In this document: in pieces, positions 1,764 to 57,654 of the stretch
Layout: every line of letters starts with the position of its first letter
Numbering within the stretch: position 1 is the stretch's first letter
Source of the DNA: Paraspadella gotoi
Lineage: Eukaryota > Animalia > Chaetognatha
Reading direction: 5' to 3'
DNA: 64,000 nt
Assembly: GCA_051294375.1 (NCBI GenBank)
Contig: CM119267.1
Span: forward strand, 13,091,081 to 13,155,080
Notes under the pieces: model-generated
What the model was told of the DNA's origin: nothing
Database searches by the model: none
Seen by the model: only the letters and a program-made list of their open reading frames with translations
Made by a program: the position numbers and the translations under genes

Positions 1764-2169
1764 TAGTCGGATCTGCTTATCAGCAGATTCCGACTCCATC
1801 AGTCCCACCCCAAAATCCTGTCGGTAAATAATTTTTATCATATCAGAACATCGAATTAAGATAAATTACGCAAAAAAAATTATGTCCGTCTGTCTGTCCG
1901 TCCGTCTGTTGACATAAATTATGCAAGTTGAAAAAATTATGTCAGTTGACTAAATTATGCCAGTTGATCAAATAATGCCAGTTGACCATATTCTGCCAGT
2001 TGACCAAATTTTGCCTGTTGACCAAACTATGCCAGCTGACCAAATCATGCCAGTTGACCAAATAATGGAATCACAAATTGAAAGAATTATCGTGATTTAT
2101 CATCTGATTAGCATATTACTGCTTGATTATCGTAAGCAGATCCAACATTGTTTGCTCAAACTTGTTTTT
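1764..2169 (+). mobile_element. Helentron-associated/DINE-1-like element (HINE family A), internally deleted copy
   Basis: 5' hairpin AGTCGGATCTGCTTATCAGCAGATTCCGACT; (GTCY)n microsatellite; 18-bp tandem array; 3' subterminal repeat GCAGATCCAAC plus small hairpin GTTTG-CT-CAAAC and T-run. Confidence 0.75.
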
Positions 2170-2170
2170 G

Positions 2171-3246
2171 AAAAATCAATGTCGGATCTGCCTACGATAA
2201 TTAAGCAGTAATAAGCAAATCCATGTGATCTTAACAGATCATAACAAATTGTAACATAACAAATCATAACAGACTCCTTAATAAATCTATGGAAAAATAT
2301 ATAAATCAATTGATCTATCAATCATTACAAGTAGCTGCGCTAATACCAACTTGTATGATTTGGTCAATTTGCATTATTTGGTCAACTTGCATAATTTGAT
2401 CAACTGGCATAATTTGATCTATTTGCATTATTCGGTCAACTGACATAATTTGGTCAGCTGACATAATTTGGTCAACTGGTATAATTTTTTCAACTTGCAT
2501 AATTTCGTCAACTTGCAAAATGTGGTCAACTTGAAAAATGTGTTCAACTGGCTTAATTTGATTAACTGGCATAATTTGGTCAACTGGCATAATTTGGTCA
2601 ACTGGCATAATTTGGTCAACTGGCATAATTTGGTAACCTGGCATAATTTGGTCAATCAATCAATCAATCAATCAAACAAATCTGAAAAAGAGTGAGAGAA
2701 ACTTTTATAAATTCAAATAAATGTGTCTTTTGGTTTTCTAATTTAAACTGTTTTCCACTCCGAGATCCTACGATTCCATAAAAAATTTATATCCAGCTTA
2801 ATCACATACATTCCTATCCATTCACAAAATTTTATTTCAATTTATCAATCCAATTTTTAATAAATATAATAATTATAAGTAAACATAAGTAAAATAACTT
2901 CAAGTAAATATGACTTTTGTTTTTTCCTTTTAAACTAATTTCCACTCGCACGATTCCATCGAAACTTTACATCCTGCTCAATCACACACCTTCCCACCCA
3001 CACTCAGAATTTCATTCCAATCCATTAATCCAATCACGAGTAATTGGAGTTTAATGCTAAGAGGGGACGGACAGATAGATGGACGGACAGACGGACGGAC
3101 ATCATTTTTTTGCATAATTGATCATAATTCGATGATCTGATATGATAAAAAAATTATTTACCGACATGATTTTAGGGTGGGACCGACGAACCGACAAAGT
3201 GAATTATAGTCTAGAGTTGGAATCTGCTGATAAGCAGATCCGACTA
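2171..3246 (-). mobile_element. HINE family A copy, tail-to-tail with the previous copy; 18-bp array at ~2350-2655
   Basis: Same termini in reverse; unit CATAATTTGGTCAACTGG; GGAC/AGAC microsatellite at 3065-3100. Confidence 0.8.
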
Positions 3247-3648: not shown

Positions 3649-4212
3649 TTAAAAGTAGACGGTCATTTTGGGAACCCTTTGATCGTCGACGCCGTCTTCA
3701 ACGACGCCGGAATGGGTCACTTTGGGTCTGACGCCGCCGGATCTCGGATCCTCAGCTTCCACAACCTCGTCCGCGTCCGCCCACGAGATTTTTTTACCGG
3801 AAGACGACGATGAGGATTTTCCGCCGCCGCCGAGGCTTCGGGATCGTTTTGGGGTGGTCTGGGAAGGAGAGGCAGAGTAGAGTTGGTGGACCTGGACGTT
3901 CGCGGGCGTGCCCGACGGAGGCGGCGGCGGTACGATCGGCTGCGTGCGCGGAAGAGACGAAAACTGACTGAAGAAAAACGTGTCGTCGTCCACGGGCGCC
4001 ATCTGCGACGACAGCTGCGGCGCCAGCTGCGGAGGATGAGGAATGTGACGCTGTGGAGGATGCAGCGCCAGGCGAGAGGTCGGCTTGGCGTCGAAGGCCG
4101 AAGAGGCGCCGGGAACGAGGTGCAACGGAGCCACGAAACCGCGGCGTTGACCGCAGCCGCTGCTTCCGCTGCCGTGACTGCCGCTGCCGTGGCTGCTGCT
4201 CTGCTGAGATAC
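3649..4212 (-). CDS. Cadherin terminal coding exon (VSQQSSSHGSG...GKKISWADADEVV...RVPKMTVYF*)
   Basis: tctctcacag acceptor, phase 0; 187 aa to TAA; GC-rich. Confidence 0.88.
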   Translation of the reverse strand, partial: VSQQSSSHGSGSHGSGSSGCGQRRGFVAPLHLVPGASSAFDAKPTSRLALHPPQRHIPHPPQLAPQLSSQMAPVDDDTFFFSQFSSLPRTQPIVPPPPPSGTPANVQVHQLYSASPSQTTPKRSRSLGGGGKSSSSSSGKKISWADADEVVEAEDPRSGGVRPKVTHSGVVEDGVDDQRVPKMTVYF

Positions 4213-6625
4213 CTGTGAGAGAAAATTTAGGGGGGGAAACTTGTTAGTTTTACTAAGTAAAATGAAATGATTGACACAAACTATATACAATATAATTTGT
4301 TCATCAGAGATTCATACTCAAGTTAACGTCCCTTTTCTTTGGTCTCAAACGTTTCATCAGTAGAAAACGAATTCACACAGAACCTCACAGCCCATTCACA
4401 AAATTTACGTCTATAACAACGACGATTAAAAAAGGGCAAGCTAACAGGGATGTGACCGAAGATATCGATGAAAGTGACGATTACCGCAAAGACGATGTCG
4501 AAGACGACGAAGACTGTGAGGACGACGACGACGACAATAAACGTCGACAACTTTCACCTACTTTCCTTTTTATTGCTTTGGAAAATAAGGAAAGACAAGT
4601 TGTGACACGTTTCGCAAACCGAAACTCGCAACTCGAAGAGTGGTTTTTTTTTGGGGGGGTGGAGTTGTTGGGGGTGGACAGAAGGAGAGAGTTCAACCCA
4701 TAGGGCAGAATAAGCAATTATAATTTTAATTTTAAAGATAGCTTATTAATTAAATGAATGGATAATTTTTATTTCGTAATAATGTTCTCAATTTCCATCA
4801 TAACCTAAAATGTTTTCTTATGTTTTATTTTTTAATGGTTTATACAAATAAATTAAACTAATAAATTAAAATTATTAAAATCTCTGATTAAATATAATAT
4901 TATGTGTGATATCTGGGGTGTGAGGCATCTCCCGACAGCTGGCGCTCAGGGCACTCACCTGCAGTGACCACGCCATGTCACTGGCGTGTTTATGCCGACA
5001 ACATCACACTTTAATCAGCGTGACCTTGAGGGGATTGAACCCGGAACTCACGGTTGGTGAACGAGTAATTAGCTGTCCAAGCCAATGGGACGAGCTGAGG
5101 TTCACCAAGCTATACGAGAGGCGAATTTAGGATTCTCCACAATATTTTAATTTAACGAAACAATAATTTTGAGAATCTTCTAGTAACGTATATGTATGTA
5201 AATTGAATATGTATGTAAATTGAAATAAAATATTGAAAAGCATTTTAAAAAAATAATAAAGCGATGAATAAAAAGCTAATAATAAAATTCGCAATTAATC
5301 AATTTCCATGAGTACAGAAGCTGATTATATTTTATATTTTGCCTATATTACTAATTTAATCTAACCACTCTAATGTTTTAAGGTACGGGCTAGCACGTTG
5401 TCGTACGGAGGAAGTAATTTGGACAAGGTTTGTACAAGGTTTGTCCCTATTTAGCCAAAAAATAGAAAGTCAGATTTAAAATCCCTAGGCGTTTGAGACG
5501 CAAGGACGCGAAATCGTAAAAACAATATGGCGGAGATTAGATAATGGGACGCGACAGCGGCGGCGGTGGCCGCAGCGCTGGCCGCTTTTAACAGTCCTAA
5601 GCCAACAAATCCTACTGTCCTAAGGCAACAAATACCAAGCTGCGAGCGCAGAAACTGTCGCGGCGGCCGCAGCGGCGACAGCAGCATCCCGGAAACGAAA
5701 TTCGACCCAACAAGGAGAAAAGATGGAAAGAACGATAAAACAATGCAACGCAACGAAGAGAACATAAGTTGTTGTACTTAAAAACAATTTTAGTATTAGC
5801 TAAGTTGTAATTTAAAGAAAAGCTGAGATCTGTAGTCGGGTATTGCATAAATTCACCCTGCCTATAAGCATGACATTGAGTAAAGCTATCAGCTAATGAT
5901 TATTAGGTACCAGGTTCAATCCTAACCCGGTACCTACCCTGCGGGAATTTTGAGGATGGCCGTAAGCCGCCTTGGGGGTATAGAAAACTCTCAAGCCTGG
6001 TTCCAAGTCCAGAACCCGTTCCATGGCTGCTAGAAGGGGTTAAAAAAATTGCGGATAGTACTCTTCAGCCCTATTAAGCGGCTTATCTACCCTGGTGAGC
6101 CTATCCTATCAAGCGTATTCTAACCTTCTTATTCCATTGGAAGCAGTACAGGGTGGGTTACAATCTGAGGGGCATGTAGTCGGGCATTGCGTAAGTTCAC
6201 CGCGCCTATAAGCATAACACCTTCAGTCGCGACCCGGTGGCTCATTGATTAAAGCCTTCAGCTCATAACCACTAAGTACCGGGTTCAATCCTTACCCGGT
6301 ACCTCCCCTGTGGGAAGCGTGAGGACGGCCTGGTTCCAAAGTTCCAAAGTTAAGCGCTTTATCCACAGATCAATTGTGTTTTTTTTAATAATAATTAAAA
6401 TTTAAACTGTTTCTTTTAGAGACGCAAATACTCCTCATTCGCCGCATCTTAAAAAGGTTGACGTGGCGCCAAAGAAAAATGGAGCACATGGCGCAGGTGA
6501 TAAGCGAAGACGAGAAAGACGACGACGACCGCGATAACGCGGAACATAAATGTAAATCCGTCGCTTCGAAGCGATTAATGGAATCTCTACGTCACGGCGT
6601 CTCTAAAACAATAAATCCCGACAAG

Positions 6626-9461: not shown

Positions 9462-12400
9462 GAGCGGATTCCTCGATGGGGTTATGGAAATGTATGAGCG
9501 GAGAGGCGTCCGAAAATATTTTTATTTTCCGCACGAATTTCGGTTTTTCTTTCCTTTTTTCGCTTTCTTTGCTTTCCGAAGAACCAGGGACAGACTCTTT
9601 GCTTTTCGCCCGGATTTTTTATGTATGGTGGAAGAGAAGATAGGTTAGAGAATCCGATGTGAATGCATTGTGTTGTTGATAAGTATCTTTTTTTCATCTA
9701 ATCATTATTAGCAACCTACATACCTGTATCAGCTTTATATTTAATGAAAAAAATAAAAAAAAAGTGTAAGATATATATTAAGTGACACTCAAAGGGCTTG
9801 ATAAACTTATTAAACAATGTTTACATGTTAAGATCATTTAAGTTCGTTTAAATTAAACGTAAAGAAATGCCTCCAGTTGTTCGACTCATCCTCAAAAAGC
9901 CTGGCTCTTCAAGAGCCGCGCGTTTCCTCGAGTTTTATTTTTATTGACAAGGAATTTGTGGTAATGTGACGGGGAAGAGGAGCGTGGGAGGGAGGAGGGG
10001 GACGAGGCGTGAGAAGTGGACGAGGAAAGAAAAAGAAGAGGGAAAGGGGGAAAAGGATTATGATGAGGCGAGGAAGACAAAGAGGGGCGATGGGTGGACG
10101 GAGAAGTTGGGGAAGGGGTGAGTGGGTGAAAGAGGAGCGAGTTAAGGGAGAAGAGAAGGAGGAAGAAAGGGAGCAAAGATGAAGAAAATAAAATAAAAGC
10201 GAATGTTAAGTGGAATGAGAAAACAAGAAGGGAGAGAAAAGTCGGTTGGAAGCAAATGTGAAAAAAGTAAGGGGAGGAAAAAGGGAATCTAATGGTGAAT
10301 AAGATGAGATGAGTGAGAGTAAGGAAGGAGAGTTTGGGTTGTTATTAGGATAGTTTATCTTTCTTGAGAAAAGAAATATTAATTTCGGGTGTGAGTTGGT
10401 GTAGTTCGTCCCTCTTAACTTCCTTTTGTAAAGGTGTTTAGAAATATAAATAATAAACATTGCTGTTTGTTATAATTCTATTGATATGTTTTAATTATGT
10501 TTTCCTTTCATACAGTTTGTGATAATATTAATTAGCCATCGTCGGGGTTTAGTATTGGTTTATGGTGGACTAAAATCCACCAACCGTTCATTAGCGGCCA
10601 TTGGTGCCGGAGGCAAGTCATTCGCCTCCCAAACCAAAGGTCCGGGGTTCTAGCTCGGTGGCCGCCTAGCAGTTAAGAGGGACAGGGCGCTTAACCCGCC
10701 TGTAACATGGTGTTACAGCCTGATCCGAAGCTCAGGGACTGCTGAGGACACATATCAATAATTACTGTCTCTTCACACGGAACAATATAGTAGACTGCAG
10801 CAATGGATTTTTGCCCAGTAGCAACAATATAACAAAGTATTTATATTTCATCTGATGCTGCAGTAGATTGCATTAAGCAATTTACTTTATATTTATATTG
10901 AAACCAACTATATCAGTTATTGATTTTATAAGCTCACCGAGATGGCACTCAATCAGAGTGGCCACTACAGTGTGAACTTAAGGAAAAAATAATTTTTTAC
11001 AACATCTTAAAATTGCTTTTATTAATTAAGGTTAAAATAGGTCTTGTTAAACTGCGGCAATTTAATAATATAACATAGTGCTAGGGAACATTAACATATT
11101 TAGTATTGGTTTTAAGCTCTCAACCGGCGCAGAGCAAATTCAGTCAATGTTGCATTCTTTTTAGTAGCGCAGCGTATTTTAAAAGCACGAGGAAAATAAA
11201 ACCTATAATAAAATAAAACTTCAGTGATTATTTTAGTATGTTATAAAAAGACATTCAATAACTTTTTGCCTATAAAATCTGATGGTAAATACTATTCTAA
11301 GTTGTGATTTACTTCCCTGTACTCTAATGTCTATATCTTTAAGATAAAACGAAATTTTCAAACATTTCATTTTTTGGCATAAAAATATATCTCACAACAG
11401 GAAGGTCCTATTGCTTTTTTTAACTAAGAAAGTAAGCAAGCTAGACTACTGGGAGTTGGAAAATAAAAAAACGTCAGCGATTTTTTGACCAGGGTGCATA
11501 AACTCAAGTTGCTTTAACAAATAATTTAGTCACAGTATTTGATCCTTTCATTTCACTCCGATTTGAAATCCGTGTAGATAAACAAAGATTGAATAAATGG
11601 AATTAGATGTTAAGGGTCCTCAATGCAATTGCTCTCTTCCCAACATCCGCCAATCACCGCGTCGGGGTGGCCAAGATTTTGAGGACTGAGGTTTCACGTT
11701 TGCTCTGCGGATTATCCGATGGTAAAAGGAGGCTGAATCAGTGTCGAGAATCTTCCATCAGGGAAAATGAAAAGCCGAAGGAATCCGAAACTCATAAAAA
11801 CCGTTCTCTCTTTCGACGAACTTCGTTGGGGGAAAAAAATAAATCGATGGCTGTCGTCTTGGAGGACATTGCCAGCGGAAATTGACGTTGACAGAGACGG
11901 GACATCGAAGGGACATTGATAAGCCAAGGACATTGGCAGAGAGAGAAACGAGGAAAAATTCACCCCGAAAGAGAGAGAGAGAGAGAGAGAGCAGAGAGAG
12001 AGAAGAGAGAGAGAGAGACGAGAGAGAGAGAGAGACATTTTTTTCAACTTACCACTTTCTAGGCATGGAAGAAATGGGAATCTGAGGAAAAAAAAACAAT
12101 TTTCTTGGGAAATGAGGAGAAAAGTGAATAAGAAGCGTGGAGGCCGCCGACCGCCGCGTTCGCGTTCGCGTTCGCGTTCGCGTTCGCGTCCGAGGCAGAG
12201 ATTAAGATTCAAGATATCGATATTGAGATGGTGAGAAATATTGTGGAAATGAGATTTCTATCTCAAAATGGCAGGAAATTACAAAGCGGAACATGATCAC
12301 AGCGGGTTGAAAGAAAATAAATGCGTTTGAACGGATTTTTCTAATTTGCTTGAATATACGAAGATTTAAAAGTCGGGAGTTTCTTCAATTTCAACTTAGA

Positions 12401-13740: not shown

Positions 13741-15791
13741 AGAGAGAAGATGAGAGAGAGAGAGAAAATGAGAGAATGAGGACACTCTGTTTTATAGGCT
13801 CTATTGGGGAAAAATATCCTGTCGAAGCAAAACGAAAAAGAGTAAATAAGGAAAAGGAGGGAAAGAGGATTGAACGAGCCAAAAATGTAGGAAAGATATT
13901 TTGTTCTCGGCAAAAAAAGAAAAGAGAGAAATCGAAGATGGAAGATCTCACTCTTTCTGGAAATGGATAATGAGTGTTCAAGGTTGAACCTTCGAATATC
14001 GCTGAAAAAGAAAGGAGGGTGAGGAAAAATAAGAAGTAAGGGTTTAAAGAAGAAAAACTAAAGAAAGAAATAAAGGAAAAAAGATAAAAGATAGATAGAA
14101 AATAGAACAAAGAAGAAAGAAGAAAAAAAGAAGGGAAAAGAAACAAATTAAAGAAACAAAGAAAGAACAAGAAAAGAAAAGAAAAAAAAGAAAAGAAATA
14201 AAGAAAAAAATTAAATAAAAAACAGGCTTAAAATTCGTAAAAATAATTTGAAATACATCAGTTATCATAAAATATTGTGGATAAGGCGCTAAGTGGGCTG
14301 AAGATTGATTATCCGTAAACTTCTATAACCCCCTTAAGTAGCCATGAACGGGTCCTGGGCTTGGAACCAGGCTTGAGAGGTTGCCGCGCCCAAGGGCTGC
14401 GCTTTACGGTCCGTCCTCACGCTTCCCGCAGGGTATGGTACGGGATGGGATTTGACCCGGGTACCTATGTGGTCATGAGCTGACGCGCTTTACTTCAATG
14501 TAGCCAACCGGGTTCAGGGACTGAAGGTGTCATGCTTTTATCAGGCGGGTGTGAAACCTAGGCAATGCCCGACTACAAATATAAACAAATCATCCCTTAT
14601 CAATTTCGATGTATCTTCTAAAAATTTTACTTTTACCCCAAATGGTCACCCCCGTCCAGCCCATTTCTTCCCCCCACCCCCCACCCCCAACTCACATCTC
14701 CTCCTCCCCCAAATTCGATGCCTGAATTTGATTGTAATCGAGGATCTTGAGCTCGTGAGCGAACATCGGCGCAGAGTTGGCCGCGCCACCGGTGACATTG
14801 GGCGGCGCTATGGAAGGAGGGGCCGGGATCCGGCCCTCGTAGACGAAGCGGTCGATGTCGGTGACCTGGAGGCCGTCGACGCCGCCACCGCCGCCGCCGA
14901 TGCCGCCGTCGCCGAGATAAGCGCAGTTTCCGTCCACGATCCCGACGCTTTGTGTGTCGGCGCGATAGATGTCGCGATCGATGGGAACTGTGGCCACGTA
15001 GCCAGAGTTGTGGCCTGGGGGGGGGGTGGAGAGGGGAAAATGTCAATGAACTTTTAAAGTGTGACCTTTAACCGATATTTCAAAATATAACAATTCTTTT
15101 TTAGAAAAAGTTGTTAAAAATCGGAGTATTTCTTAAACTCTAAAATAGTCACCGGCGAAAGTGTAAACTTGGGATTAAAACCAGCGCCGCAAGCTGCTGC
15201 GCCACATTTCTCGGAAATTCTCCCCCTCACGCTCCCAAACTCCCCCCTCCCTTCTCTATCCCCACTTGTTGATGTTTTCCGGGATTTTTTCTTCCATCTC
15301 TTCGCCTGTCCACCTGCCTGTCAATTCTCGTTTCGACCAAAGTTGAAAACCTATTTTTTCTCGCCCTTTCCTTTTCTTTTCATTCTCTCTTTTCATGTTG
15401 CTCGCTTTGTTTCTTTGTGTTTCCTTCCTTTCTTTCCTTTTTTCTTTCTTTCTTTCTTTNNNNNNNNNNNNNNNNNNNNNNNNNNNNNNNNNNNNNNNNN
15501 NNNNNNNNNNNNNNNNNNNNNNNNNNNNNNNNNNNNNNNNNNNNNNNNNNNNNNNNNNNNNNNNNNNNNNNNNNNNNNNNNNNNNNNNNNNNNNNNNNNN
15601 NNNNNNNNNNNNNNNNNNNNNNNNNNNNNNNNNNNNNNNNNNNNNNNNNNNNNNNNNNNNNNNNNNNNNNNNNNNNNNNNNNNNNNNNNNNNNNNNNNNN
15701 NNNNNNNNNNNNNNNNNNNNNNNNNNNNNNNNNNNNNNNNNNNNNNNNNNNNNNNNNNNNNNNNNNNNNNNNNNNNNNNNNNNNNNNNNNN

Positions 15792-16418: not shown

Positions 16419-19400
16419 CGATAACGATTTGAATATTCATTCTCTAATCAATACCTCGGCATGAAATATCATATTGTGCGATTGATGGAATAAACAAGTT
16501 TGAGCAAACAATGTCGGATCTGCCTACGATAATTAAGCGGTAATAAGCTGATGATAAATCACGATAATTTTTTCTGACTTATAACACATCGTAACATAAC
16601 AAATCATAACAGACTTCTTAATAAATCTATGAAAAAATCTATAAATCATTACCAGTGGCCTCGCCAATACCAACTTGCATAATTTGATAATTTTTCATAA
16701 TTTGCTAATTTTGCATAATTGGGTCAACTTGCATAATTTGGTCAACTTGTATAATTTGATTAACTTGCATAATTTAATCAACTTGCATTATTTGGTCAAT
16801 TGGCATAATTTGGTCAACTGACATCATTTTTTCATCTGGCATAATTTTATCAACTTGCAAAATTTGATAGACTGAAATAATTTGGTCAATTGACGTAATT
16901 TGGTCAACTGGCATAATTTGATCAAATGGCATAATTTGGTCATCTGGCATAATTTTATCAACTAGCATAATTTGGTCAACTGGAATAATTTGGTCAACTG
17001 GTATAATTTGGTCAATTGATGTAATTTGGTCAATGGCATAATTTGGTCAAATGGCATAATTTATATACTTTTCTACCCACACACAAAATTTAAATTCAAT
17101 TTATCTATCCAATTTTTAATAAATATAATAATTATAAGTAAAAATACTTTAAGTAAATGTGACTTTTGTTTTTTCCATTTAAACTCATTTCCACTCGCAC
17201 GATTCCAACGAAACTTTATATCCAGCTTAATCACACACTTTCCTACCCACACACAATATTTCATTCCAATCCAACCATCCAATCACGAGTAATTAGATTT
17301 TTTGGGACGGACGGACAGACTGACTGATGGACATAATTTTTTTTGCCTTTAATTTATTATAATTCGATGTTCTGACTGACGGACCGACAAAGTGGATTAT
17401 AGAGTCGGGATCTGCTGATAAGCAGATCCGACTAAAACGATTTAATTACAGAGAATAAAATGAGAATCTTTAAAGATTTGTTCATTATAACGATGATATT
17501 CATTATCATCTTTTTATTATAAACGGTTTCCTTTGGGAGTCGGCGTCAAATAGTTTGTGATTTTGTGAACAATTTTTTTACAGAAGAAGGGGAGAGAAAG
17601 AAAGAGAGAGAGAGAAAGAGAGTAAGTGAGAGAGAGGGCAAAGATTCTAACACAGTTGAGAAAGGACAGTGGTCAATGGTGAGAATAGGCTTAGGGTAAG
17701 GACAGATATATTTTTAGTTTTTGAAAAGAAATGAAATAGTCAATTGGGGAGAGAGAGAGAGGGAAACAGGGAGAGAGAAAATAATAAATTTTTAATCTAC
17801 AACAGTTAAAAGATTTTTGTAAACTGAAATTAGATATTAACAATTAACTATTAATAAATAATTGAGTAAAGGAAATAAAAAAATTAGAAAAATGAAAAAG
17901 ATACATTTGGTCAGGGAAAGTTAAGTAATTAGTAAAGTAAAAGGTAAAGAACTAAGATAGAGCTCAAAATTTAGCTAGCCCCCCTTGGTTTTAGAAAATG
18001 AGAGGCTTGGTTGAGAGGACAGTTCGATTGAGCATGCTAATGCTGGATTAGGGATGCTTCCTTGAGGGAAAATTGCCTGCCCATTGCCTGCGCAAGGGTC
18101 TCCGGCTGTCTGTCCGCCTGTCTCGTTGAATGGAGACAGGGGAATCATTGTGGGGTCGTGGTGGCGGCGGGGCCTCTACCACGCTCTCAATAAGCGAATC
18201 ATAGCTTGGAGGGAGATCGAATCGTCTTCCATCACGGTTCAANNNNNNNNNNNNNNNNNNNNNNNNNAAGGAACTAGTGATGTTTTCGGTCTGGGGATTT
18301 TTGTTTTACAGTTCACCAATTGCTCACGCAGAAGAGCCGCGGTCGTCACTGAGGTGTGAGTCCCTGCTTTCCTAGCACCCACACCAATGACGCCAGTGAT
18401 CTCCTGGTGGTAGGGGAGGGAAAGGTGACCCATAGTTCTAAGGTCGCTTCTGCTTATCTTCCAGTTGCGCTGTGGTGGGCGCCGTTGGCTCTTCAGCAGT
18501 AAGTTCCCCTTTCTTCCTCCTGGGGGGTGGAGGTAGAGTCTGCATTAGTGGCTACTTGGGTAGCCCCCTGGGTGGCCACTGCCATCAACGGGCAAGCAGG
18601 CCGGTACCTGGCATTCTCGAAGGCCCAAGAATGGGTAACCATTGATGCAAAGGCTCTTTTGACGTGCTCAAGCTCGGCGGCCTAAGCTCGGGGTCGACAA
18701 AATCAGTGGCAGCGTCTCTCCTGGTAAGGGCTCTGACCGTGGCAAGCTTAGTGCGACAAGGGAGTCGAAAGGAAGTTGTATTGGTTTGTATGGGTCGGTT
18801 TGCGGTATCTGAAATTCCAACAAACCGCCCTCTTGCGCTTAATAAGCACACAAATCGAGCAACTTGGAATTGACCCCATTCTCCTCCTTCCTTGCCCTAA
18901 TTCTCACCATTGACCCACTGTCCCTTCTTGCAACTCTGTGTTGGGAAAACTTTGGCCCTTTCTCTCTCTCTACAAAACTGCGGGCAGTCAAAAAAAAGAA
19001 AGAAACTTCTTTCACGTTGTGTCACCGAAAAAACTATATTGGATGGATGAATTTAACACTGGGAGTATAGAGCATATAAACGCAAGCTTATGAAAGTAAA
19101 GCGATTGGTCCAGGTCCGCATTAAAATCGATCAAAGCGTCAGAAAATTTATAAGACGTCATTGTTAAAGAAAAATCGACGAGAATCAATTTTTTTAATCA
19201 AAAAGAGTCTCTGCACTTTCTTCTTATTATAATAGAGAGATGCGCATCTTTGAATCGAAGGCTCCGATCAAGTTTCCTTTATATTTCCACTTCTATTCAA
19301 AACTGCATAGTCAAGGCCAAAACATAATTATGTCAATATGGGCCATGCATTTCGAAAGCTTGGCGTCTTGGGAAGCCAATGGAGGTAGAGCGGCGATCAA

Positions 19401-22400: not shown

Positions 22401-23782
22401 CGCGAGAAACGTTGTCGGCGTCGGAGCGTTCTCTGGCGGTCGAGAAGAGAGACTCTCTCTCTCCAGGGTGAGCCGTTAGACGTGAGTCGAATCTCGAATC
22501 ACGAGTGAAATCAAAGGCCGAGGAAGGAAATTAGAGAAGAATAGTTAAAATAAACTTTAACAAAGGAATTACGATTGATTCTATTAAAAGTGTGATATAA
22601 TAGGGAGTTGAAAATTTAGATATGTCCTCTCATCAACAAGATCTTTGAAATTGTCATGTTTTATATCAATATTCAGATTTGTTTATGTTTTATTTACAAA
22701 ACAAAAACTTTTTAATTATATGTCGCTCTCTCTCTTTCTCTCTTTTAATTATATGTCGCCTCTCTTCTCTCTCTCTCTTTTTTTCTCCGTCACTGCTTCT
22801 TCTGATTTGTCTAAAAACGAGTTCAGGCTCTCTCTCTCTCTCTCTCTCCTCCTCTCTCTCTCTCTCTCTCTCTCTTTCTCACTCATACACGCATTTGTTT
22901 ATGTTTTATTTACCAAAAAAATTTTATATTTATTGTGTAGAAGACGCCCTGCTGACTCTTTGACGAGTAACGGGCTTCTCTTTCTTTTAATTATGTCGCT
23001 CTCTCTCTCTCTTTTTTCTGAATAGGGTTAGCCCCACTCAATGGGGTGAGTCAAATGAGTACATGCTCAAACGATAATTTATACATTTTTAAATATACTT
23101 TCAATATACAAAAAAATTCTTATATGGCTTTATAGCCAAATATTTATTTTTTAGTATTTATTTATAGATAAGAAAAGAGTTGAACCCTATTCAGATTCGT
23201 CTAAAAACGAGTTCAGCTCTGCAGCGGCTGTTCAACGGTTGTCCAGCTTTTTCTTCTATCATCGCGTCAATGAATGACTATCATCGGATCAATGAATGAT
23301 TATTATCGGATCAATGGATGACTATTATTGCATTAATGAATGACTATCATCGCATCCATCATTTGGTTATCATCGCAAAAATATTTGGTTATCACCGCAT
23401 CAATCATTTGGTTATCATCGCATCAATCCTTTGGTTATCATCGCATCAATCCTTTGGTTATCATCGCATCAATATTTGGTTATCATCGCATCAATATTTG
23501 CTTATCATCGCATCAATAATTTGTTATCATTGCATCAATAAAGAATTTCTATTACATCAATAAATTACTACTACTTCAATCAATTACTATTACATTAATC
23601 AATTACTATTACATCAATAATTCGTTATCGCATCAATCATTCTTTTTTTTCTGGATTTTTTCATTAATTTTCTTTGATAGTGCCGTCTGGCGAGATCACT
23701 ACTCTTTTAAGATTTTTTTCTCTTTTCAGAGAAAAACAGAAAATTAATTTCCGATAGACGACGTTTCTCAGCGACATAACAC

Positions 23783-34633: not shown

Positions 34634-37008
34634 ACATTATAAAAGCTTATTAAAATCTATCGAAGATATAATCTAGTTTAGATATCACGAAGCTGTAATT
34701 GAGCTTTTTTTAAAAGTGATTACTTCGCCTACCTGTATAAAAGAGTTGTGGACGAGGAGGCTTTGACTTTGAGCTCCGCCAGAGTTCCGGTCAACGAAAT
34801 CAAAACTCGAGTCGCACCTGAAAAAAATAAAACAAACGGAACTCAAAATTTGTCAAAAAAAAGAGAGAGAAAGCTAAGGAGGAAGAAAGAGGAAGCCAGG
34901 TGAAGCGGGACTGACATCGTATTTTTCGTCGTCTTCGTCATTTTTAACGTTCACTGTCGCTGTCATTTAGTCTGACATCGTCTTTTTTGTCGTCTTCGTC
35001 ATCTTTAACGTTCATTGTCGCTGTCATTTACTGTGACATCGCCTTTTTCATCGTCTTCATCATCTTTAATGTTCATTGTCGCTGTCATTTAGTCTGACAT
35101 AGTCTTTTTCGTCATCTTCGTCATCTTTAACGTTCATTGCCGCTGTCATTTACTCTGACATCATCTTTTTCATCGTCTTCGTCATCTTTAACGTTCATTG
35201 CCGCTGTCATTTACTCTGACATCTACTTTTTCATCGTCTTCGTCATCTCTAACGTTCTTTGTCACTGTCATTTATTTTGACAAGCTCTTTTTCGTCATCT
35301 TTGTCATCTTTAATGTTCATTGTCGCTGTCATTTACTCTGACTTCGTCTTTTTCGTCATCTTCGTGATCCTTATCGTTCTTGTCGCAGTCATCTTACTTG
35401 TCCATACGTTTTCTTNNNNNNNNNNNNNNNNNNNNNNNNNNNNNNNNNNNNNNNNNNNNNNNNNNNNNNNNNNNNNNNNNNNNNNNNNNNNNNNNNNNNN
35501 NNNNNNNNNNNNNNNNNNNNNNNNNNNNNNNNNNNNNNNNNNNNNNNNNNNNNNNNNNNNNNNNNNNNNNNNNNNNNNNNNNNNNNNCCACCGGGGCATC
35601 GCCGCCGGTCACCGGGGCCGCCCCTTCCAAAAATGGCCAAAGAATCGGATAAAAGGGCGAAGGATTCTGGGGAACAGGGGTGGCGGAGGGGGGGAGGTCG
35701 AAAAGATTTGGTGCGGAAACACCCGAGGGGGGAGCGGGATAAATTGGGGAGAGGAACAGCGCCTTATAACGGATGGAACCAAGGCGCGCTCCTTGGGAAA
35801 GGCCACTCAGGGTCGTCACGAATATTGGCTACAGATCAGGTTAATGGTTTCGGATGAAGGTGGAGGTATTAAATAAAAAAATGAGAGAGAGAAAGAGAGA
35901 AACGGAGAGAGTCGATGATGGATTTCTCTCTCTATTTAATAGATTTCTTATTTTATTACTTTTTGAGCGAGAGGAGAAAGATAGAGAAAGAGAAATACCA
36001 AATCTTCTTTCTTTCTTGAATTTTTTTGGCGGTGAAGAGAGATAATATAAATATTGGAAAGTAAATGTCTCAATCTTTTCGAGTCAGGATTCTGGGCGGG
36101 GCGATTAATTAAGGGGGCGGAATGTTAGAAAAGTTTGATTTGTAAGAGNNNNNNNNNNNNNNNNNNNNNNNNNNNNNNNNNNNNNNNNNNNNNNNNNNNN
36201 NNNNNNNNNNNNNNNNNNNNNNNNNNNNNNNNNNNNNNNNNNNNNNNNNNNNNNNNNNNNNNNNNNNNNNNNNNNNNNNNNNNNNNNNNNNNNNNNNNNN
36301 NNNNNNNNNNNNNNNNNNNNNNNNNNNNNNNNNNNNNNNNNNNNNNNNNNNNNNNNNNNNNNNNNNNNNNNNNNNNNNNNNNGAGGAAGAAAAAAAAGAG
36401 AGGAAGAAAAAAAAGAGAAATAGAGAAGAGCCGTCGAGCAATGGAGCTCAACAAACTTAGGCGTGACCAAACAAAAAAGCATCAGGATTCAGGAGATAAA
36501 GAGAGAGGAGGAACGACGATGTTTTGGGAAAGGAGCATTTAGTATTTAATTTGAAAAGAGGGCGCCGGGTGCTGGGAAGAGCAAGGGCTTGCTGGGCAGT
36601 GGGCGCGAAGGAAAAGGACTGAGGGGAGGAATACTTCACTGAAACCCAAGGCTTTTCCCAGAACTGACCTTTACGCTGTCAAATTCTGACAGGTTGTTTG
36701 AAGGCAAAGGAATACAACCGACTCGCCCTCTTTTTGCGTTTCTATCTTTCGCTATTTTCTCTTTCATACGAATTATTGAATACAAGTGAGCGACACCAGT
36801 GGTCAAACCCCAAGGTGATGCAAAACTATCGCTCTNNNNNNNNNNNNNNNNNNNNNNNNNNNNNNNNNNNNNNNNNNNNNNNNNNNNNNNNNNNNNNNNN
36901 NNNNNNNNNNNNNNNNNNNNNNNNNNNNNNNNNNNNNNNNNNNNNNNNNNNNNNNNNNNNNNNNNNNNNNNNNNNNNNNNNNNNNNNNNNNNNNNNNNNN
37001 NNNNNNNN

Positions 37009-40000: not shown

Positions 40001-42781
40001 ATGTCATCTTCAGTGGAAGTAAGAGAGTTAACAAGCAAATCTTTTGCAAAGAAAAAAATAATAAGAGAGAAACACAATAACAGAAGAACCCAAAAGGGTT
40101 GCACTTCAGCCAACCAAGTTAAAAAGGAGGTGGAGTTTACTCTTGATATGTATGAAGATAACGGTCAAAACAGAAAAAAAACTTTGTAGCATTGCAACCA
40201 CATACAAACAACCAAACCCAGAACAGAAAACAACCACTACCAATACAGGCAATCATAAACACAAAATACCAAAAATGAAAACATCACAAATATCTACGCA
40301 ATCCCAACAAACCTCTTTGATGTCCTCCCCTTTCGGGATAATAATATTGAAGAAGACAAGACATAATTTTAAAATGTAAACTTTGAAATTTTAAGATCGG
40401 ATTTGGATTTCTTGCAAAAAGTTGATATAAGAAAGTATAATTTTTTTTGAAAAATTATTTCATTAAGTTGGTCAAAAATGTAAAAAACTACATTTTGCAT
40501 AATATATCTTTTTAATTTAACTAAGTTTTGATTGGTTGTGACTACGTAAAACATTAAAAGGTAAAAATAAAAAAAAGTTGATCGACAAATTTGATGAGTT
40601 CATTGGAGCAAAGAAGTTAATACTAAAGTCTTGTTAGAATTATGTAAAAATTGATCGATTTAAAAATGCCAGACGGCGGGAAACAAAATGAGCTATAATT
40701 TAAGTATTTAGTGTGAAGGGACTATGAGATATCGCCACAGGAAATGTAACAATTGAGAAAAATCATACTGTATTTTTGAGGTTTTTTAGTCGGATCTGCT
40801 TATCAGCAATTCAAGACTTTATAATCCACTTTGTCGGTCCGTCGGTCTGCCCCCTCAATCTTGTCGGGCATTAACTTATTTCATGTCAGAACATCGAATT
40901 ATGCAAAAAAAATGATGTCCGTCCGTCCATCTGTCGGTCCGTCCGACCCACTTTAGCAAAAAACTCCAATTACTCGTGATTGGATGGTTGGATTGGAATG
41001 ACATGTGCGGCAAGGAAAGTGTGTGATTGAGCTTGATATAAAGTTTCATTGGAACCGTGCGAGTGGAAATGAGTTTAAATTGTAAAAACAAAAGTCATAT
41101 TTACTTATATTTACTCATAATTATTAAAGTTATTAAAAATTGGATAGATAAATTGATATGAAATTTAGTGTGTGGGTAGGAAAGTATGCAAATAAGCTGG
41201 AAATAAATTTTTGATGGAATCGGAGGAGTGAAAAAGAAAACCAAATGACACATTTGAATTTTTAAAAAATTTTCTCTCTCTCTTCTCTCTCTGAATGATT
41301 GATTGATTGATTGGTTGATTGATTGATTGCTTGCAAGTTGACAAAATTATCTAAGTGAGCATATTCTGCAAGTTAACTAAAATTATGCAAGTTAAAAAAA
41401 AGTATGTCAGTTGACCAAATTATGCCAGTTGACCAAATAATAAGTTGAAAAAAATTATGCAAGTTGAAAAAAATATGCAAGTTGATCAAATTATGCAAGT
41501 TGAACAAATTATGCAAGTTGACCAAATTATAAAAAATTAGCAAATTATGCAAAATTATCAAATTATGCAAGCTGATAATGATTGATAGATCATTTGATTT
41601 ATAGATTTTTTCTTAGATTTATTAAAAAGTCTGTTATAATTTTTTATGAAATTGGTACAACCAATATAAAAATTATCTATTCATTTAATAAACAAGCTAT
41701 CTTGCCCCTGACTTGGGATAGGCATGGGTGGTTTAAGGCCTCCATCACTCTTACAAAATAATGACATAGCAGGTCCCTGCAAGCTTTCAATCAAGACTCT
41801 CTCACAGTCACGTTTATTCACTCCCATATTACCTGGCTTCCCTATCAATGAAGTGGTATAATGTTTCAAAGAATGTTTCAAATGTATGAAAAGACCACTC
41901 CCTTATGGCTTATGTATTAGATCGGAGAATACTATATTGTACTCCGCCCAGCATCAAAATACAAGGAGCTGAATTTTATGAAATTGGTACAACCAATATA
42001 CAACGTGTTACAACGTTTTATGATCTGTTAAGATCACAAATTGAAAGTCAGAAAACATTACCGTGATTTATCATCGGATTAGCTTATTACCGCTTAATTA
42101 TCGTAGCCATATCCGACATTGTTTGCACAAACTTGTTTAAATTTTCATCAGTTGATTTGTTGTGTCCTTCGTTTACTTCGTCTAAAAGTAAAAGTAAGAC
42201 TCCTTACCCTCCCCTCCACCCCCCCAAACTCACCCTGCCTCGCTCCGGCTCCTTTCCCATCGGACACGACGACGACGAAGTCAAGGATCGTCTCCACGAT
42301 CGGATTCGAGGCTTCGTTGATGAGGAAGACGCGCCCCTCGGCGTCCACGCGGACCACGTCCGAGTAAGGCCCGATCACGACGAACTTTAGCTTCGTCGAA
42401 GTGTCACGATCTTTGGCCGTCAGGCGGCCGCAGGGAGACTGGATTGGAGGGGGGGCGTTTGATTTGGGGAGAGCGAAAAGGGGAGGGAAGAAAGGAATTA
42501 ATATTTGTGGTAATATTTTATTAATACGTAACTGATATAGCGATATTTTTTTCTATTTATTAATGACATCAATCAATCGATCAATCAATCAATCAATCCA
42601 TCAATCAATCATTCAATCAATCAAACGAATCAATGTTACTTTGGAGCGAACGTCGCAAGAGAACTCGTAAGCGGTTTGATCGAAAACTGGATTGTTGTCG
42701 TTCATATCCTCGACAATGACTCGGACGGGAGCTTGGGAGAGGTAGTTCCCGTCCGTCACCGATATTCTGAAAAGGGGATTG

Positions 42782-45213: not shown

Positions 45214-48120
45214 CTCCGGAACCGGGTCAATCGGCGTTTTGAGCTTTCGACATGGACGCCTCTCAATCTTGGCAAATCGTTAAGTCTCTCTCGCCCTCCC
45301 CTCTCCCCCTTCCCTCCCTCTTTCTTCTCTCCCTCCCCTCTCCCCCTTACCCTCCTCTTTCTCCAACTCCCACCGTCTTCCCTTCTCTCTCATAATCTTT
45401 CCCTATCTCCTCCTTTAATTCCCACATCCCCTTTTCGCGCCCTCCATCGATTTTCTATGACCTTAGGACCCAAAGGGAAAGAAAACTACATTGGCTTCCT
45501 AATATGGGTCATTTTTCCAAGGCTGCGATTGGTCACTTCTCGAAAGAAGTCGGTTTATGCAGAGTAATTCGCTCTCATCGGCCGATATGACCAATCAGAC
45601 TTCTCAAAATTTTCCCTATTCGTTAATATTCCCTATTAACGTCGAATCGACCTATCGGGCTTCTCAAAATTGTCTCGGTTAACGTAGAATCGACCAATCA
45701 GGTTTGTATTAAAGCAAGAATTGCGAGGCTCTCGTTTCCACAGTCGGTGACACACCTGGAAACTCATTTGTGCGAGGGTGGTTGCCGGTTGGGAAATGTG
45801 GTAGAGGGGGTTGACAGAGTTGTGGTTCGCGCGAGAGAAGAAAGTCATTCGTAATCTTGACTACGATTCCGAATGAAAGAGACAAATCTCGCGATAAAAT
45901 TCTGCGTTTCTCCCCTTTTTTATTTTCTCATTTTCCCCTTTCTTTTCTTCTTTTATTCGTTTTTTTTTCTCCCGTTCAAAGCGATCGAATTCTCCCCAAC
46001 CGGGCCATATGTGACACAGCATCACTTTTCCCTCGAATCCCCACCCGATTCCGCACCACTCTTCCACCGCGTCCCTCCACCCACCTTACCCGGTTGAAAG
46101 ACCTCGATCCTCATAAAGGTGAGGTCGAGCGGGTAATTCTCCGGCAGCCTCTCAACGTATTCGCTCTTCTCGAATTCCGGCGCCGATTCGTTGCTCGAAG
46201 TCACTCGGATTCGCAGCGTCGTCTGGCGAAGAAAAATGGAATTTAAACGTTTTGTTTAAAAGAAAATACCATGATGGAAAAAAAAATGTTACGGCAACTT
46301 TGAGAACAATTTGCGGAGCTTTAATTTAAAAATAGAAGATAAAAAATTATATAGAAAGAAAATTTAGCTTCTTGCAAATCGAACGAGCTGTGTTTCATTC
46401 TTAAACTTAAAAAAAAATGTAGGAGTATCAAGCGAAAGAAAATGAGTAGGCAAAAGAAGAACCTCCTTCTTTTTTTGGCTTTCAATTACTTTAATTTTTA
46501 TTAACTTTTTTATGATTTTTTTTATAATTAACAAGTATGATAACCTGAGCATTGCTCAGAAGGCTTCGATTGACGAATTAAAGTTGGCTGGCATCTCCAT
46601 GGCCAAGATTTCAACTCAATTAAAGGTACCAAAGCGGAGTATCCAACGTGTCTTCAAAGTTTACTATAGTACCGGCTGCTGCAGCAGAAGGATGGGGTCT
46701 GGCAGACCAAGAGCGATTACAAGGGACCAGGACAAGGTGCTTGAAGAACTGACCTTACAAAACCGATTCGATTCCGCCTCAATGCAAAGAAAGAGATGGG
46801 CCAAAGGAGTGGGGGTCAACGTGTGCCGAAAAACTTAACAACCGCTTAGTCGAAATGGGTCTACACGCTCGAAAACACGAAGAAAACCTCTGAAAACCCA
46901 AGCAATGCGAGCCAAAAGGCTTGCTTTTGCTAAATCTCATTGCATCAATGGCGGCGTGTCAGATTCAGCGATGAATCTTGGTTTATGATGAAAGAGAATG
47001 ATCGCATCAAATATGTTCGACGACGAGTTGGTGAAGCAGATGATCCAGAATGCGTTCTGAATACTGTAAAGCATCAACAAAAGGTCATAGTCTTCGGCGC
47101 CATCTCATCTTGTGCCAAATCTAAACTTGTGTTCATCTCGGGACGTGTTAGAAGCACAAAATATCAAGAGATCCTTAGAGAAGCTAAAATCGCAAAATTT
47201 GCAAAAGGTGGAAGTTTCATGGAGGACAATGAACCACCACATCGTGCAGCCACAACAAAAGCCTGGCATGCTTCAAAGGGTGTGAAGTTGCTTCCAGACT
47301 GGCCAGGGTATAGTCCGGACCTTAATCCCATCGAAAATGTCTGGTCAGAAATGAAAGATCGCTTACGACGTGAGAAGCCTACTTTAATTTCTGAGATGAA
47401 AAAAGCTATCCAAAAAGTTTGGGACGGTATCTCTTTGGGGTATCTGCAGGCCCTGTATAACTCTATGCCGAAGAGAATTAATGCCGTTATTCTGTCAAAG
47501 GGAGGTCATACTTCGTATTAAATCCAATATACTTTGAAAAATACTAATTTGGCAATAAAATTGACTGCGTTTTCGTAACCGCGACACTTTTTTTTCCATC
47601 ATGGTACTAACATAGAATTTTTAGAAAATGGCCACAAGACTCAAAAAACTATCAATTGTTTTTAAAAAGTCTAGTTGTTAAAATTCATTTTGTGCGGAAA
47701 TACGTAATTAGACATGGCTAAATTTGCTAAATTGCTACATGGCTAAATTTACTAAATAATTGCCACGAGGCGTTTTTCTCTGGTCATTTTCCATCCATTC
47801 AACAAAGGCAACCACTTTCAATTTTCATTTCGTCTTTTGTTTATTTTTTTTAATCCCGCCCCAACTGTTTCGAACAGACCAAGTTCACTGAATGGAAAAA
47901 GTCCCTCCTGATATAGATTTTTCGTCAACAATGCGTCTCTCTCAGCACCACGCCGCCACGTGGCGGACTCTCATTTCACGACGGGACGCCCTGATGCCAC
48001 GATGCCACGATGCCCTAATACCCTAGTGCCCCGACCCGTCAAAATTTGTAACCTTTTCGTATTGGTAATTTGTAATCCTTTCTCTAATTCTCTTGACTCA
48101 TAGGCCTCTTTTGTTTTCTC

Positions 48121-57387: not shown

Positions 57388-57654
57388 TGTAGTCGGGCAT
57401 TGCCTAGGTTCACCCCGCCTATAAGCAAGACACCTTCAGTCGTGACCCGGTAGCTCATTGAGTAAAACCATCAACTCATCAAAACTAGGTACTGGGTTCA
57501 ATCCAAACCCTGCGGGAAGCGTGAGGACGGCCGTGAGCCGCCTTTGTAGCGTGGAAAACCCTCATGTCTGGTTCCAATCCCAGGACCCGTTCCATGGCTG
57601 TTAAAGGGGGTTAAAGGAGTTGCGGATAGCACTCTTCAGCCCCATTTAGCGCCT
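57388..57654 (+). mobile_element. LTR of the same TRIM family, 3' tip interrupted by a MITE-like insertion
   Basis: TGTAGTCGGGCATTGCCTAGG...; A box TAGCTCATTG and B box GGTTCAATCC; similarity stops at TTAGCGCCT. Confidence 0.85.

What the first reader, a model, noticed from the sequence alone, without database searches (positions are those of the whole stretch)
5831..6367. Miniature LTR retrotransposon whose LTRs contain a tRNA-Met-derived Pol III promoter
Seen: two ~200-260-bp direct repeats with TG...CA outer ends and GATC on both flanks. The ~83-bp interior has a TGG-starting PBS-like site and a short purine tract. About 55 bp into the LTR is a tRNA-like block with A box (TGGCTCATTG; deleted in LTR1), CTCATAA loop and B box GGTTCAATCC. 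The 14276 copy reads AAAGCGCGTCAGCTCATGACC, close to elongator tRNA-Met. Known: plant Cassandra TRIMs carry 5S sequence in their LTRs, and Helenus TRIMs carry tRNA-like sequence (4-bp TSD reported for animal members). Inference: this is a Helenus-like SINE/LTR hybrid that could self-transcribe by Pol III and borrow RT and integrase in trans. It may be an unrecorded family in this lineage and would usually be mislabelled as a SINE.
Basis: partly seen in the sequence, partly recalled or inferred. Interest (0 to 1): 0.8.

Follow-up and report, generated by a model that had tools for sequence, protein, structure and literature searches.

The report
Animal mini-retrotransposon with twister ribozyme
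This is a worn copy of a multi-copy, protein-free jumping element in an animal genome whose end repeats carry a tRNA-like piece (likely a promoter) followed by a predicted self-cutting "twister" RNA, so intact copies would likely cut their own transcript to unit length and spread through an RNA circle; cutting and circles are untested.

Summary
The two-LTR element is real: TG...CA ends, GATC on both flanks, 83-bp interior, tRNA-type A and B boxes. Contigs of public runs show a highly repeated family with fixed ends and a shared purine-tract/LTR junction. Three details fail: the primer site is unconfirmed, the 83-bp interior is not the family norm, and the "Met" loop is nearly private to LTR2.

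Right behind the tRNA-like part the LTR holds a type-P5 twister ribozyme fold whose P1 helix is replaced by a 6-base palindrome. Where LTR1 breaks four of its pairs, 94-99% of laid depth reads the pairing letter. A sequence-unrelated 256-bp element at 10529-10784 repeats the layout, with compensatory changes.

Likely mechanism: Pol III read-through, a cut in each LTR (probably as a dimer), circularisation, and copying by a Gypsy-type helper, as in plant retrozymes. None of this is tested; Rfam scores are far below threshold, and this copy is decayed. Eight literature searches found no twister-bearing LTR element. This scan noted the same design earlier on other pieces of this genome (11 notes, unreviewed). 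Verdict: new variant joining Helenus and LTR retrozymes.

The parts
5827..5830 (+). Left target-site duplication, GATC
   Evidence: junction crossed by contigs of X1, X3
5831..6091 (+). 5' LTR (LTR1), 261 bp, with a 25-bp deletion that removes the A box
5913..5922 (+). B box of LTR1
5941..6018 (+). Type-P5 twister-like fold of LTR1 (P5, P2, GAGGA, palindromic P1 remnant, UAA, T2, long P3, P4/L4); decayed in this copy; predicted cut between 5963 and 5964
   Evidence: Rfam Twister-P5 16.3 bits, E 0.77; pair table; variation across contigs
6092..6174 (+). Interior, 83 bp; TGG-starting site at 6093 (unconfirmed as primer site); G-rich purine tract at about 6167-6174
6175..6367 (+). 3' LTR (LTR2), 193 bp; keeps the tRNA-like part, has lost most of the ribozyme and of U5 by deletions after 6330
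6231..6303 (+). tRNA-like segment of LTR2: A box at 6238, B box at 6282-6291
6368..6371 (+). Right target-site duplication, GATC
14276..14577 (-). Solo LTR of the same family, 302 bp, rich in small insertions; twister core with all T1, T2 and P4 pairs; ATATT on both sides (5 bp, or 4 bp plus one inserted base)
   Evidence: (Twister-P5 17.5 bits, E 0.23)
57388..57653 (+). Solo LTR of the same family lacking its last 9 bases; TACT on both sides; perfect P1 palindrome but changes at the cut site and in T2
   Evidence: no Rfam twister hit
10529..10784 (+). Second, sequence-unrelated 256-bp element, likely a solo LTR of another family; ATAT on both sides; starts TA, ends CA
10594..10665 (+). tRNA-like fold of the second element (7-bp acceptor-like stem, 5-bp T-like arm)
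10668..10743 (+). Twister-like fold of the second element; predicted cut between 10692 and 10693
   Evidence: no Rfam twister hit

Best explanation
The element is a decayed copy of a multi-copy, non-coding miniature LTR element whose LTR joins tRNA-type A and B boxes (likely a Pol III promoter) to a predicted type-P5 twister ribozyme, so intact copies would likely be cut once in each LTR and replicate through a predicted unit-length RNA circle with enzymes likely borrowed from a Gypsy-type helper. Shown: LTR layout, fixed ends, 4-bp duplication at this site, the boxes, the twister-type sequence and pairings, and their recurrence in a second family. Inferred, in order: (1) Pol III starts near LTR base 57 and reads through, as the copies lack T4 runs on this strand except for one in decayed LTR1; (2) because P1 is a 6-base palindrome that cannot close as a hairpin, the two LTR copies of one transcript pair with each other and both are cut near LTR base 158; (3) the released unit (one LTR plus one interior, no terminal repeat) is ligated by a host enzyme; (4) a helper's reverse transcriptase runs more than once round the circle, rebuilding two LTRs, and its integrase inserts the DNA with a 4-bp duplication. 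The copy at 5831-6367 can probably no longer do this.
For: Family structure: 54, 54, 48 and 16 contigs in four runs leave the stretch at 6175 into unrelated flanks (agreement 0.39-0.41); loose ends behind 6071 share a run ending in the LTR's CA. Summed contig depth is about 10,000 times the flank in the LTR and 2,000-3,500 times at the purine-tract end of the interior (the tool warns that this is no copy number). Twister: I noted the fold by eye before Rfam returned Twister-P5 for 2 of 3 family copies scanned. The segments match the column layout of published twisters (UAA, P2, GC, long P3, P4, L4, GAG; Table 1 of PMC8501958). T1 has 3 of 3 pairs in all three family copies that keep it. Of 9 variable places listed inside the fold, 5 lie in the P3 loop and 4 are places where LTR1 breaks a pair and 94-99% of laid depth in X3 and X1 reads the pairing letter; none of the 27 listed places falls in GAGGA, UAA, the T2 GC or L4 bases 1-7 (695 and 1135 contigs laid). 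The second element has no blastn or nhmmer likeness to the family, yet has tRNA-like part then twister, P3 8 of 8, P4 5 of 5 and P5 6 pairs, a self-complementary P1, the same bulged P2, and two compensatory changes in T1. P1 segments form no hairpin alone but self-duplexes of -8.7 to -14.1 kcal/mol. Precedents: plant LTR retrozymes (PMC4918200); hammerheads with palindromic short stems cleaving as dimers (PMC6765202); engineered Pol III plus twister circles (10.1101/2023.07.11.548538).
Against: No cleavage, transcript or circle was observed. Rfam scores (16.3 and 17.5 bits) are far below the gathering score of 37.6, and the 57388 copy and the second element give no twister hit. P2 is short and bulged (3 bases against 4) where the seven published examples have 4 straight pairs; P1 is absent as a monomer, and cleavage without P1 is described as inefficient. 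None of the five window copies is intact at every position. Nested folding is no better than shuffles: z -0.12 to -1.42 for the four folds and -0.80 for the 5964-6330 stretch. My first, loose descriptor gave 5 hits against a mean of 1.2 in 30 shuffles, one of which reached 5; the stricter patterns were written after seeing the copies, so their clean controls are partly circular. Table 3 hides differences where contigs are clipped (5948-5950 appear, not in 46). The primer site is unconfirmed, the A box lacks the YGG part of the Helenus motif, no helper element was found, and one copy has a 5-bp flanking repeat.
Confidence: 0.58

Rival explanations
1. The ribozyme is active but serves only as an end-former: transcripts cut in the 3' LTR alone keep a terminal repeat of about 100 bases (LTR base 57 to 158) and are copied by ordinary strand transfer, with no circle.
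For: The LTR has no T4 terminator on the transcribed strand, so a 3' end is needed; a stunted P1 could leave the 5' ribozyme uncut; Cassandra uses a short terminal repeat made by Pol III (PMC10886601).
Against: Both LTRs carry the same ribozyme, and a palindromic P1 in two unrelated families suits a paired cut at both sites; plant elements with LTR ribozymes accumulate as circles.
Confidence: 0.2
2. It is a plain Helenus-type element; the twister-like segment is a dead passenger or a structured look-alike with no cutting role.
For: Sub-threshold Rfam scores, two misses; irregular P2, no monomer P1; every window copy has a defect.
Against: The majority of laid contigs keep the pairs that LTR1 breaks; the second, unrelated family keeps the same layout with compensatory T1 changes; a published Helenus family has a hammerhead core at the same place.
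Confidence: 0.17
3. The repeats are tRNA-derived SINEs or tandem non-LTR retrozyme units, and the two-repeat layout here is chance or a tandem dimer.
For: tRNA head plus ribozyme is known from schistosome repeats (passage in PMC4918200); most window copies are single; the first half of the interior is rare.
Against: 56 fixed bases precede the tRNA-like part; fixed TG and CA ends; no A-rich or simple-repeat tail; short flanking duplications at all four loci; the purine tract joins the LTR start at high depth.
Confidence: 0.05

Closest known systems
Helenus TRIMs (proposed TRIMp3), Kojima 2024, PMC10886601 (read parts 1-4 and 6 of 6; supplement searched by motif only)
   Same: Under 1 kb, two LTRs, tRNA-derived boxes in the LTR, purine tract, 4-bp duplication in animals, solo LTRs common.
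   Different: The paper describes no ribozyme in Helenus. No listed family starts like this LTR. In the other families seen in the supplement passages the tRNA-like part lies near the LTR's 3' end; here it is in the 5' half with the ribozyme fold behind it.
Helenus-2_SyJa and Helenus-2_SyUm (Synergus wasps), supplement of PMC10886601
   Same: tRNA-like part followed at once by a ribozyme-type core inside the LTR; by my reading of the printed sequence a type III hammerhead.
   Different: Hammerhead, not twister; unrelated sequence; not annotated as a ribozyme in the paper. I read this by eye and ran no model on it.
Plant LTR retrozymes, Cervera et al. 2016, PMC4918200 (passages read)
   Same: Non-coding, ribozyme inside each LTR, 4-bp duplication, primer site and purine tract, proposed Gypsy helper, unit RNA between the two cut sites.
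   Different: Type III hammerhead, plants, no tRNA-derived promoter in the passages read. A 2026 preprint still places LTR retrozymes primarily in plants (10.64898/2026.07.22.740005, passages).
Type-P5 twister ribozyme (Rfam RF02684) and the T-variants of Schistosoma Perere-3 (PMC8501958; sections 3 and 17 and passages read)
   Same: Same core segments, both pseudoknots, long P3 as in the schistosome examples, reduced P1.
   Different: T-variants sit at the 5' end of an autonomous non-LTR element in the P1 permutation; here the P5 permutation lies inside an LTR, with a palindromic P1 and a bulged P2.
Tornado expression system (passages of 10.1101/2023.07.11.548538)
   Same: Pol III promoter plus twister ribozymes used to make RNA circles in animal cells.
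   Different: Engineered; ligation by RtcB is recalled, not seen in the passages shown.

Membership tests
Helenus / TRIMp3 | Two LTRs, under 1000 bp, no coding capacity | tested here: met
   537 bp; no ORF of 120 aa or more overlaps it
Helenus / TRIMp3 | tRNA-derived A box (TRGCY and YGG) and B box (GGTTC) in the LTR | tested here: met
   TRGCY and GGTTC present at tRNA spacing (45 bases); the YGG part is not matched; motifs
Helenus / TRIMp3 | 4-bp target-site duplication (animals) | tested here: met
   GATC here; TACT at 57388 (end truncated); ATAT at 10529; 14276 copy ambiguous, 5 bp or 4 bp plus insertion
Helenus / TRIMp3 | Primer-binding site complementary to a host tRNA | tested here: inconclusive
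   TGG start in this copy and one more contig, absent in another; no host tRNA set
Helenus / TRIMp3 | Purine tract before the 3' LTR | tested here: met
   G-rich tract at 6167-6174, junction shared at high depth
Helenus / TRIMp3 | Transcription by Pol III | not testable with these tools
   untested for Helenus too
LTR retrozyme | Self-cleaving ribozyme motif inside each LTR | tested here: inconclusive
   Twister-type motif in LTR1 and both solo copies; deleted from LTR2 of this copy; activity untested
LTR retrozyme | The ribozyme is a type III hammerhead | tested here: not met
   Rfam scans of the copies list no hammerhead at E up to 10
LTR retrozyme | Unit-length circular RNA in cells | not testable with these tools
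   only contigs could be laid
Twister ribozyme, type P5 | UAA cut strand, GAG partner strand, L4 loop | tested here: met
   against Table 1 of PMC8501958; UGA in the 57388 copy
Twister ribozyme, type P5 | Pseudoknots T1 and T2 | tested here: met
   T1 3 of 3 pairs in three family copies, 2 of 3 with compensatory changes in the second element; T2 2 of 2 in the 14276 copy and the second element, one wobble in LTR1, 1 of 2 at 57388
Twister ribozyme, type P5 | P1 of at least two base pairs next to the cut site | tested here: not met
   No monomer hairpin predicted; 6-base palindrome could pair between two copies
Twister ribozyme, type P5 | Regular P2 helix | tested here: inconclusive
   Two pairs plus a bulge or mismatch plus one pair in both families
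Twister ribozyme, type P5 | Rfam gathering score 37.6 bits | tested here: not met
   16.3 and 17.5 bits; two misses; the model has no long P3
Twister ribozyme, type P5 | Self-cleavage at U-A | not testable with these tools
   needs in vitro assay
tRNA-derived SINE | Starts at the tRNA head, ends in an A-rich or simple-repeat tail, variable duplications | tested here: not met
   Fixed 56-base leader, fixed CA end, 4-5 bp duplications

The most novel reading that the evidence does not exclude
Pol III-driven miniature LTR elements of animals have recruited self-cleaving ribozymes more than once (twister in this genome, hammerhead in Synergus wasps) to make their RNA ends, forming an animal class of LTR retrozymes; the twister here would be a natural dimer-dependent form that cuts only when both LTRs are transcribed and leaves the single-ribozyme circle stable, a natural counterpart of the engineered Tornado system.
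Probability: 0.35. Interest if true: 0.86.

Novelty: new variant of a known kind. Interest (0 to 1): 0.74.

Why it matters
LTR retrozymes are described from plants and with hammerheads; twister ribozymes have a proposed role only at the 5' end of non-LTR elements; Helenus has no described way to end its Pol III transcript. This family would link all three: it offers a function for genomic twisters, an animal LTR retrozyme, and a mechanism for tRNA-promoter TRIMs. The tests are cheap (in vitro cleavage of one versus two LTRs, divergent RT-PCR). A twister that needs its partner copy would also be a useful part for making RNA circles. Such repeats are likely to be mislabelled as SINEs or tRNA pseudogenes.

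Tried and rejected
No whole genome is held, so no genome-wide table of copies, duplications or helper elements. No RNA holder listed; run X9 is only guessed to be RNA and is held as contigs, so nothing is concluded on expression. ARAGORN and Rfam call no tRNA; the other Rfam rows are chance matches to simple repeats. The acceptor-like stem of LTR2 (5 of 7 pairs) is weak evidence, since LTR1 scores 4 of 7 with its 5' strand deleted. Elongator tRNA-Met origin rejected as unsupported (place 6267); the isotype stays open. Pattern scans: 0 matches in viral contigs; 3 in metagenome contigs, which are twister-like cores in GC-rich, gene-like DNA without LTRs and unrelated to the element; their T1 and T2 pairs were imposed by my pattern and are not counted as support. 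The 46171-46087 descriptor hit was dropped as chance: no P3, and it failed the second descriptor. The MAFFT alignment of the four cores misregisters the second element, so no pair count was run on it; the table is used, whose automatic parse of L002 and L003 is also off register. The bacterial promoter scan is irrelevant. Host lineage: three protein searches gave nothing; only a cadherin exon was confirmed. Look-ups of earlier notes by sequence or relatives were blank. Two twister papers were not held, so residue roles beyond what PMC8501958 states are recalled.

Full report
1. Observation. The element runs from 5831 to 6367: LTR1 5831-6091, interior 6092-6174, LTR2 6175-6367, outer ends TG and CA, GATC on both flanks. 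The LTRs match at 140 of 168 aligned bases; LTR1 lacks 25 bases that include the A box, and LTR2 lacks about 93 bases after 6330. So the copy is old and damaged. Contigs of runs X1 and X3 cross both outer junctions and the inner join (table 8), so the layout is not an assembly error. blastn and nhmmer find two more copies in the window, 14276-14577 (-) and 57388-about 57653 (+). An undamaged LTR would be about 286 bp (LTR1 plus its gap; the 57388 copy plus its gaps gives the same). The window is animal DNA: a minus-strand exon at 56831-56983 is a cadherin repeat. The lineage was not determined.

2. The family. No genome is held, so I laid contigs of four public runs (3 studies) at 80% likeness. 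Summed depth is 16-21 in the flanks of X3 and X1 and up to 190,518 and 211,903 in the LTR. The tool warns that this is no copy number; I take it only as 'very many copies'. In the four runs 54, 54, 48 and 16 contigs leave the stretch exactly at 6175 into flanks with no common sequence (agreement 0.39-0.41), and 26, 27, 29 and 6 contigs run on behind 6071 through a shared stretch that ends in the LTR's CA. The ends are therefore fixed and there is no tail. The last 40 bases of the interior, with the purine tract, reach depths of 56,428 (X3) and 39,559 (X1), so two-LTR elements are common. The first 40 bases reach only 111-131 and 37.5: this copy's primer-side interior is not the family norm at 80% likeness. 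One of the two other X3 contigs that cover 6093 lacks the T of TGG. The primer site is thus unconfirmed. Flanking repeats: GATC here, TACT at 57388 (whose last 9 bases are missing), ATATT at 14276 (5 bp, or 4 bp plus an inserted base in a copy that carries a dozen small insertions).

3. tRNA-like part. Counting 45 bases back from the B-box G, as standard tRNA numbering predicts, lands on the T of the A box (6238). TRGCY and GGTTC of the Helenus motifs are met, YGG is not. No tRNA is called by ARAGORN or Rfam. The CTCATAA loop is present only in LTR2; about 99% of laid depth differs at 6267, so the Met assignment has little support. The six element parts checked have no T4 run on this strand except one in LTR1, against seven A4 runs, which fits Pol III read-through but is a small sample.

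4. The missed feature. Within a few bases of the end of the tRNA-like part begins a twister-type motif in the P5 permutation. In LTR1: P5 5942-5945 with 6015-6018, P2, GAGGA 5952-5956, a 6-base P1 segment, UAA 5963-5965, GC 5969-5970, a 9-pair P3, P4 and the loop 6001-6008. I wrote this down; Rfam then returned Twister-P5 for LTR1 (16.3 bits, E 0.77, one of 3 rows) and for the 14276 copy (17.5 bits, E 0.23, the only row), and nothing for the 57388 copy. These scores are far below the gathering score of 37.6; the model has no long P3. The segments line up with the columns of published twisters (PMC8501958, Table 1). In one search (695 contigs of X3, 1135 of X1, differences from 3%), 9 of 27 listed places lie in the fold: 5 in the P3 loop, and 4 (5957, 5989, 6008, 6013) where LTR1 breaks the P1 palindrome, P3, T2 or P4 and 94-99% of depth reads the pairing letter. 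No place is listed in GAGGA, UAA, the T2 GC or loop bases 6001-6007; the tool notes that a missing row proves nothing, and clipping did hide 5948-5950. Two departures from known twisters remain: P2 is short and bulged, and P1 cannot close as a hairpin. The P1 segments do form self-duplexes (-14.1 kcal/mol for the perfect 8-base palindrome at 57527-57534).

5. An independent second family in the same window. A descriptor written for the first family also hit 10677-10736 (5 hits in all, mean 1.2 in 30 shuffles, so the loose scan alone is weak). The hit lies in a 256-bp GC-rich element, 10529-10784, with ATAT on both sides, a TA start and a CA end, and no likeness to the first family. It has a tRNA-like fold (7-bp acceptor-like stem) followed at once by a twister fold with P3 8 of 8, P4 5 of 5, P5 6 pairs, T2 2 of 2, a self-complementary P1, the same bulged P2, and a T1 in which two pairs are changed on both sides and the third is broken. 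It scores 21 on a second descriptor against at most 17 in 25 shuffles, and a joint pattern finds it and the 14276 copy with 0 matches in 100 shuffles; both were written after seeing it. Rfam gives it no twister hit.

6. Mechanism. Shown: structure, ends, boxes, twister-type sequence and pairings. Inferred: Pol III starts near LTR base 57; the two palindromic P1 segments of one transcript pair and both sites are cut near LTR base 158; the unit, which has no terminal repeat, is ligated (RtcB is the recalled candidate); a Gypsy-type helper copies the circle and inserts it. Gypsy is suggested by the 4-bp duplication and by the primer-site comparison for animal Helenus. The dimer step has a precedent in hammerheads with palindromic short stems (PMC6765202, passages); I took up the dimer wording after seeing it in earlier scan notes, and tested only the duplex energies. 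This copy is probably dead: LTR1 has lost its A box and gained a T4 run, LTR2 has lost the cut site.

7. Known systems and novelty. Closest are Helenus (PMC10886601; parts 1-4 and 6 of 6 read), plant LTR retrozymes (PMC4918200 and PMC7761336, passages) and the twister variants of Perere-3 (PMC8501958). The Helenus text mentions ribozymes only in citing retrozymes. Following a lead from earlier notes, I saw in its supplement that the LTRs of Helenus-2_SyJa and Helenus-2_SyUm carry a hammerhead-type core right behind the tRNA-like part (read by eye). The supplement was searched by motif only, line breaks can hide matches, and only 5 of 22 occurrences of the twister-loop words were shown, so a twister in a published Helenus is not excluded. 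Eight searches of the held library listed no paper describing a twister in an LTR element; most hits were seen as listings only. Passages were also read in 10.1101/2022.07.19.500677 (twister-P1 circles from metatranscriptomes), PMC10085705, PMC12859917, PMC13570524 and 10.64898/2026.07.22.740005 (LTR retrozymes primarily in plants). Subscription journals, Repbase and Dfam could not be searched, and preprint supplements were closed.

8. Earlier notes of this scan. Eleven notes on other pieces of this genome reach the same reading (unreviewed, not counted as evidence). Their elements are 639-749 bases with units of 413-494 bases, against about 369 for this copy's layout. Sequence look-ups with my copies found none of them, so the family here may be a further one, or my copies are too decayed to match.

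9. Verdict. The finding is real and richer than first read: it works like an LTR retrozyme with a Helenus-type promoter, but fails the hammerhead criterion of retrozymes and is below the Rfam threshold for twister. New variant of a known kind; confidence in the full cycle 0.58; interest 0.74.

Noticed in passing
window 10529-10784: Second, unrelated 256-bp element with tRNA-like fold, twister-like fold and ATAT on both sides; likely a solo LTR of another family. No contigs were laid on it.
   Followed up: partly
supplement of PMC10886601, Helenus-2_SyJa-LTR and Helenus-2_SyUm-LTR: A type III hammerhead-like core follows the tRNA-like part; the paper does not mention it. Read by eye only.
   Followed up: partly
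window 3649-57130, minus strand: Multi-exon cadherin gene (exon 56831-56983 confirmed; others at about 50000, 42650, 42300, 25000 and a likely C-terminal exon at 3649-4212). The elements seem to lie in its introns, 3 of 4 loci on the opposite strand, where a ribozyme would not cut the host pre-mRNA.
   Followed up: partly
window 46446-47521: Tc1/mariner-type transposase in two frames (DDE_3, E 1e-17).
   Followed up: no
window 1872-2685, 16566-17063, 41396-41593, 63135-63347: Arrays of 18-bp period in both orientations, some as inverted pairs; possibly a foldback or MITE-type family.
   Followed up: no
window 6050-6091 and 14276-14315: The LTR's last 40 bases are bracketed by a short inverted repeat (GGATA ... 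TATCC) that could form a terminal hairpin.
   Followed up: no
window 6275-6303: The B box sits in the loop of a 9-pair hairpin that replaces the tRNA T arm.
   Followed up: partly
window 14276-14577: This copy has about a dozen 1-3 base insertions against the other three; it may be a poorly polished stretch of the assembly (an N gap starts at about 15460).
   Followed up: no
L002 1181-1256 and 1744-1817; L001, L003 about 1200-1270: Twister-like cores in GC-rich metagenome contigs; L002 has two 89% alike copies 563 bases apart.
   Followed up: no
window 34850-35440; 23237-23592 and 60724-60855: Tandem arrays of 61-bp and 22-bp period.
   Followed up: no
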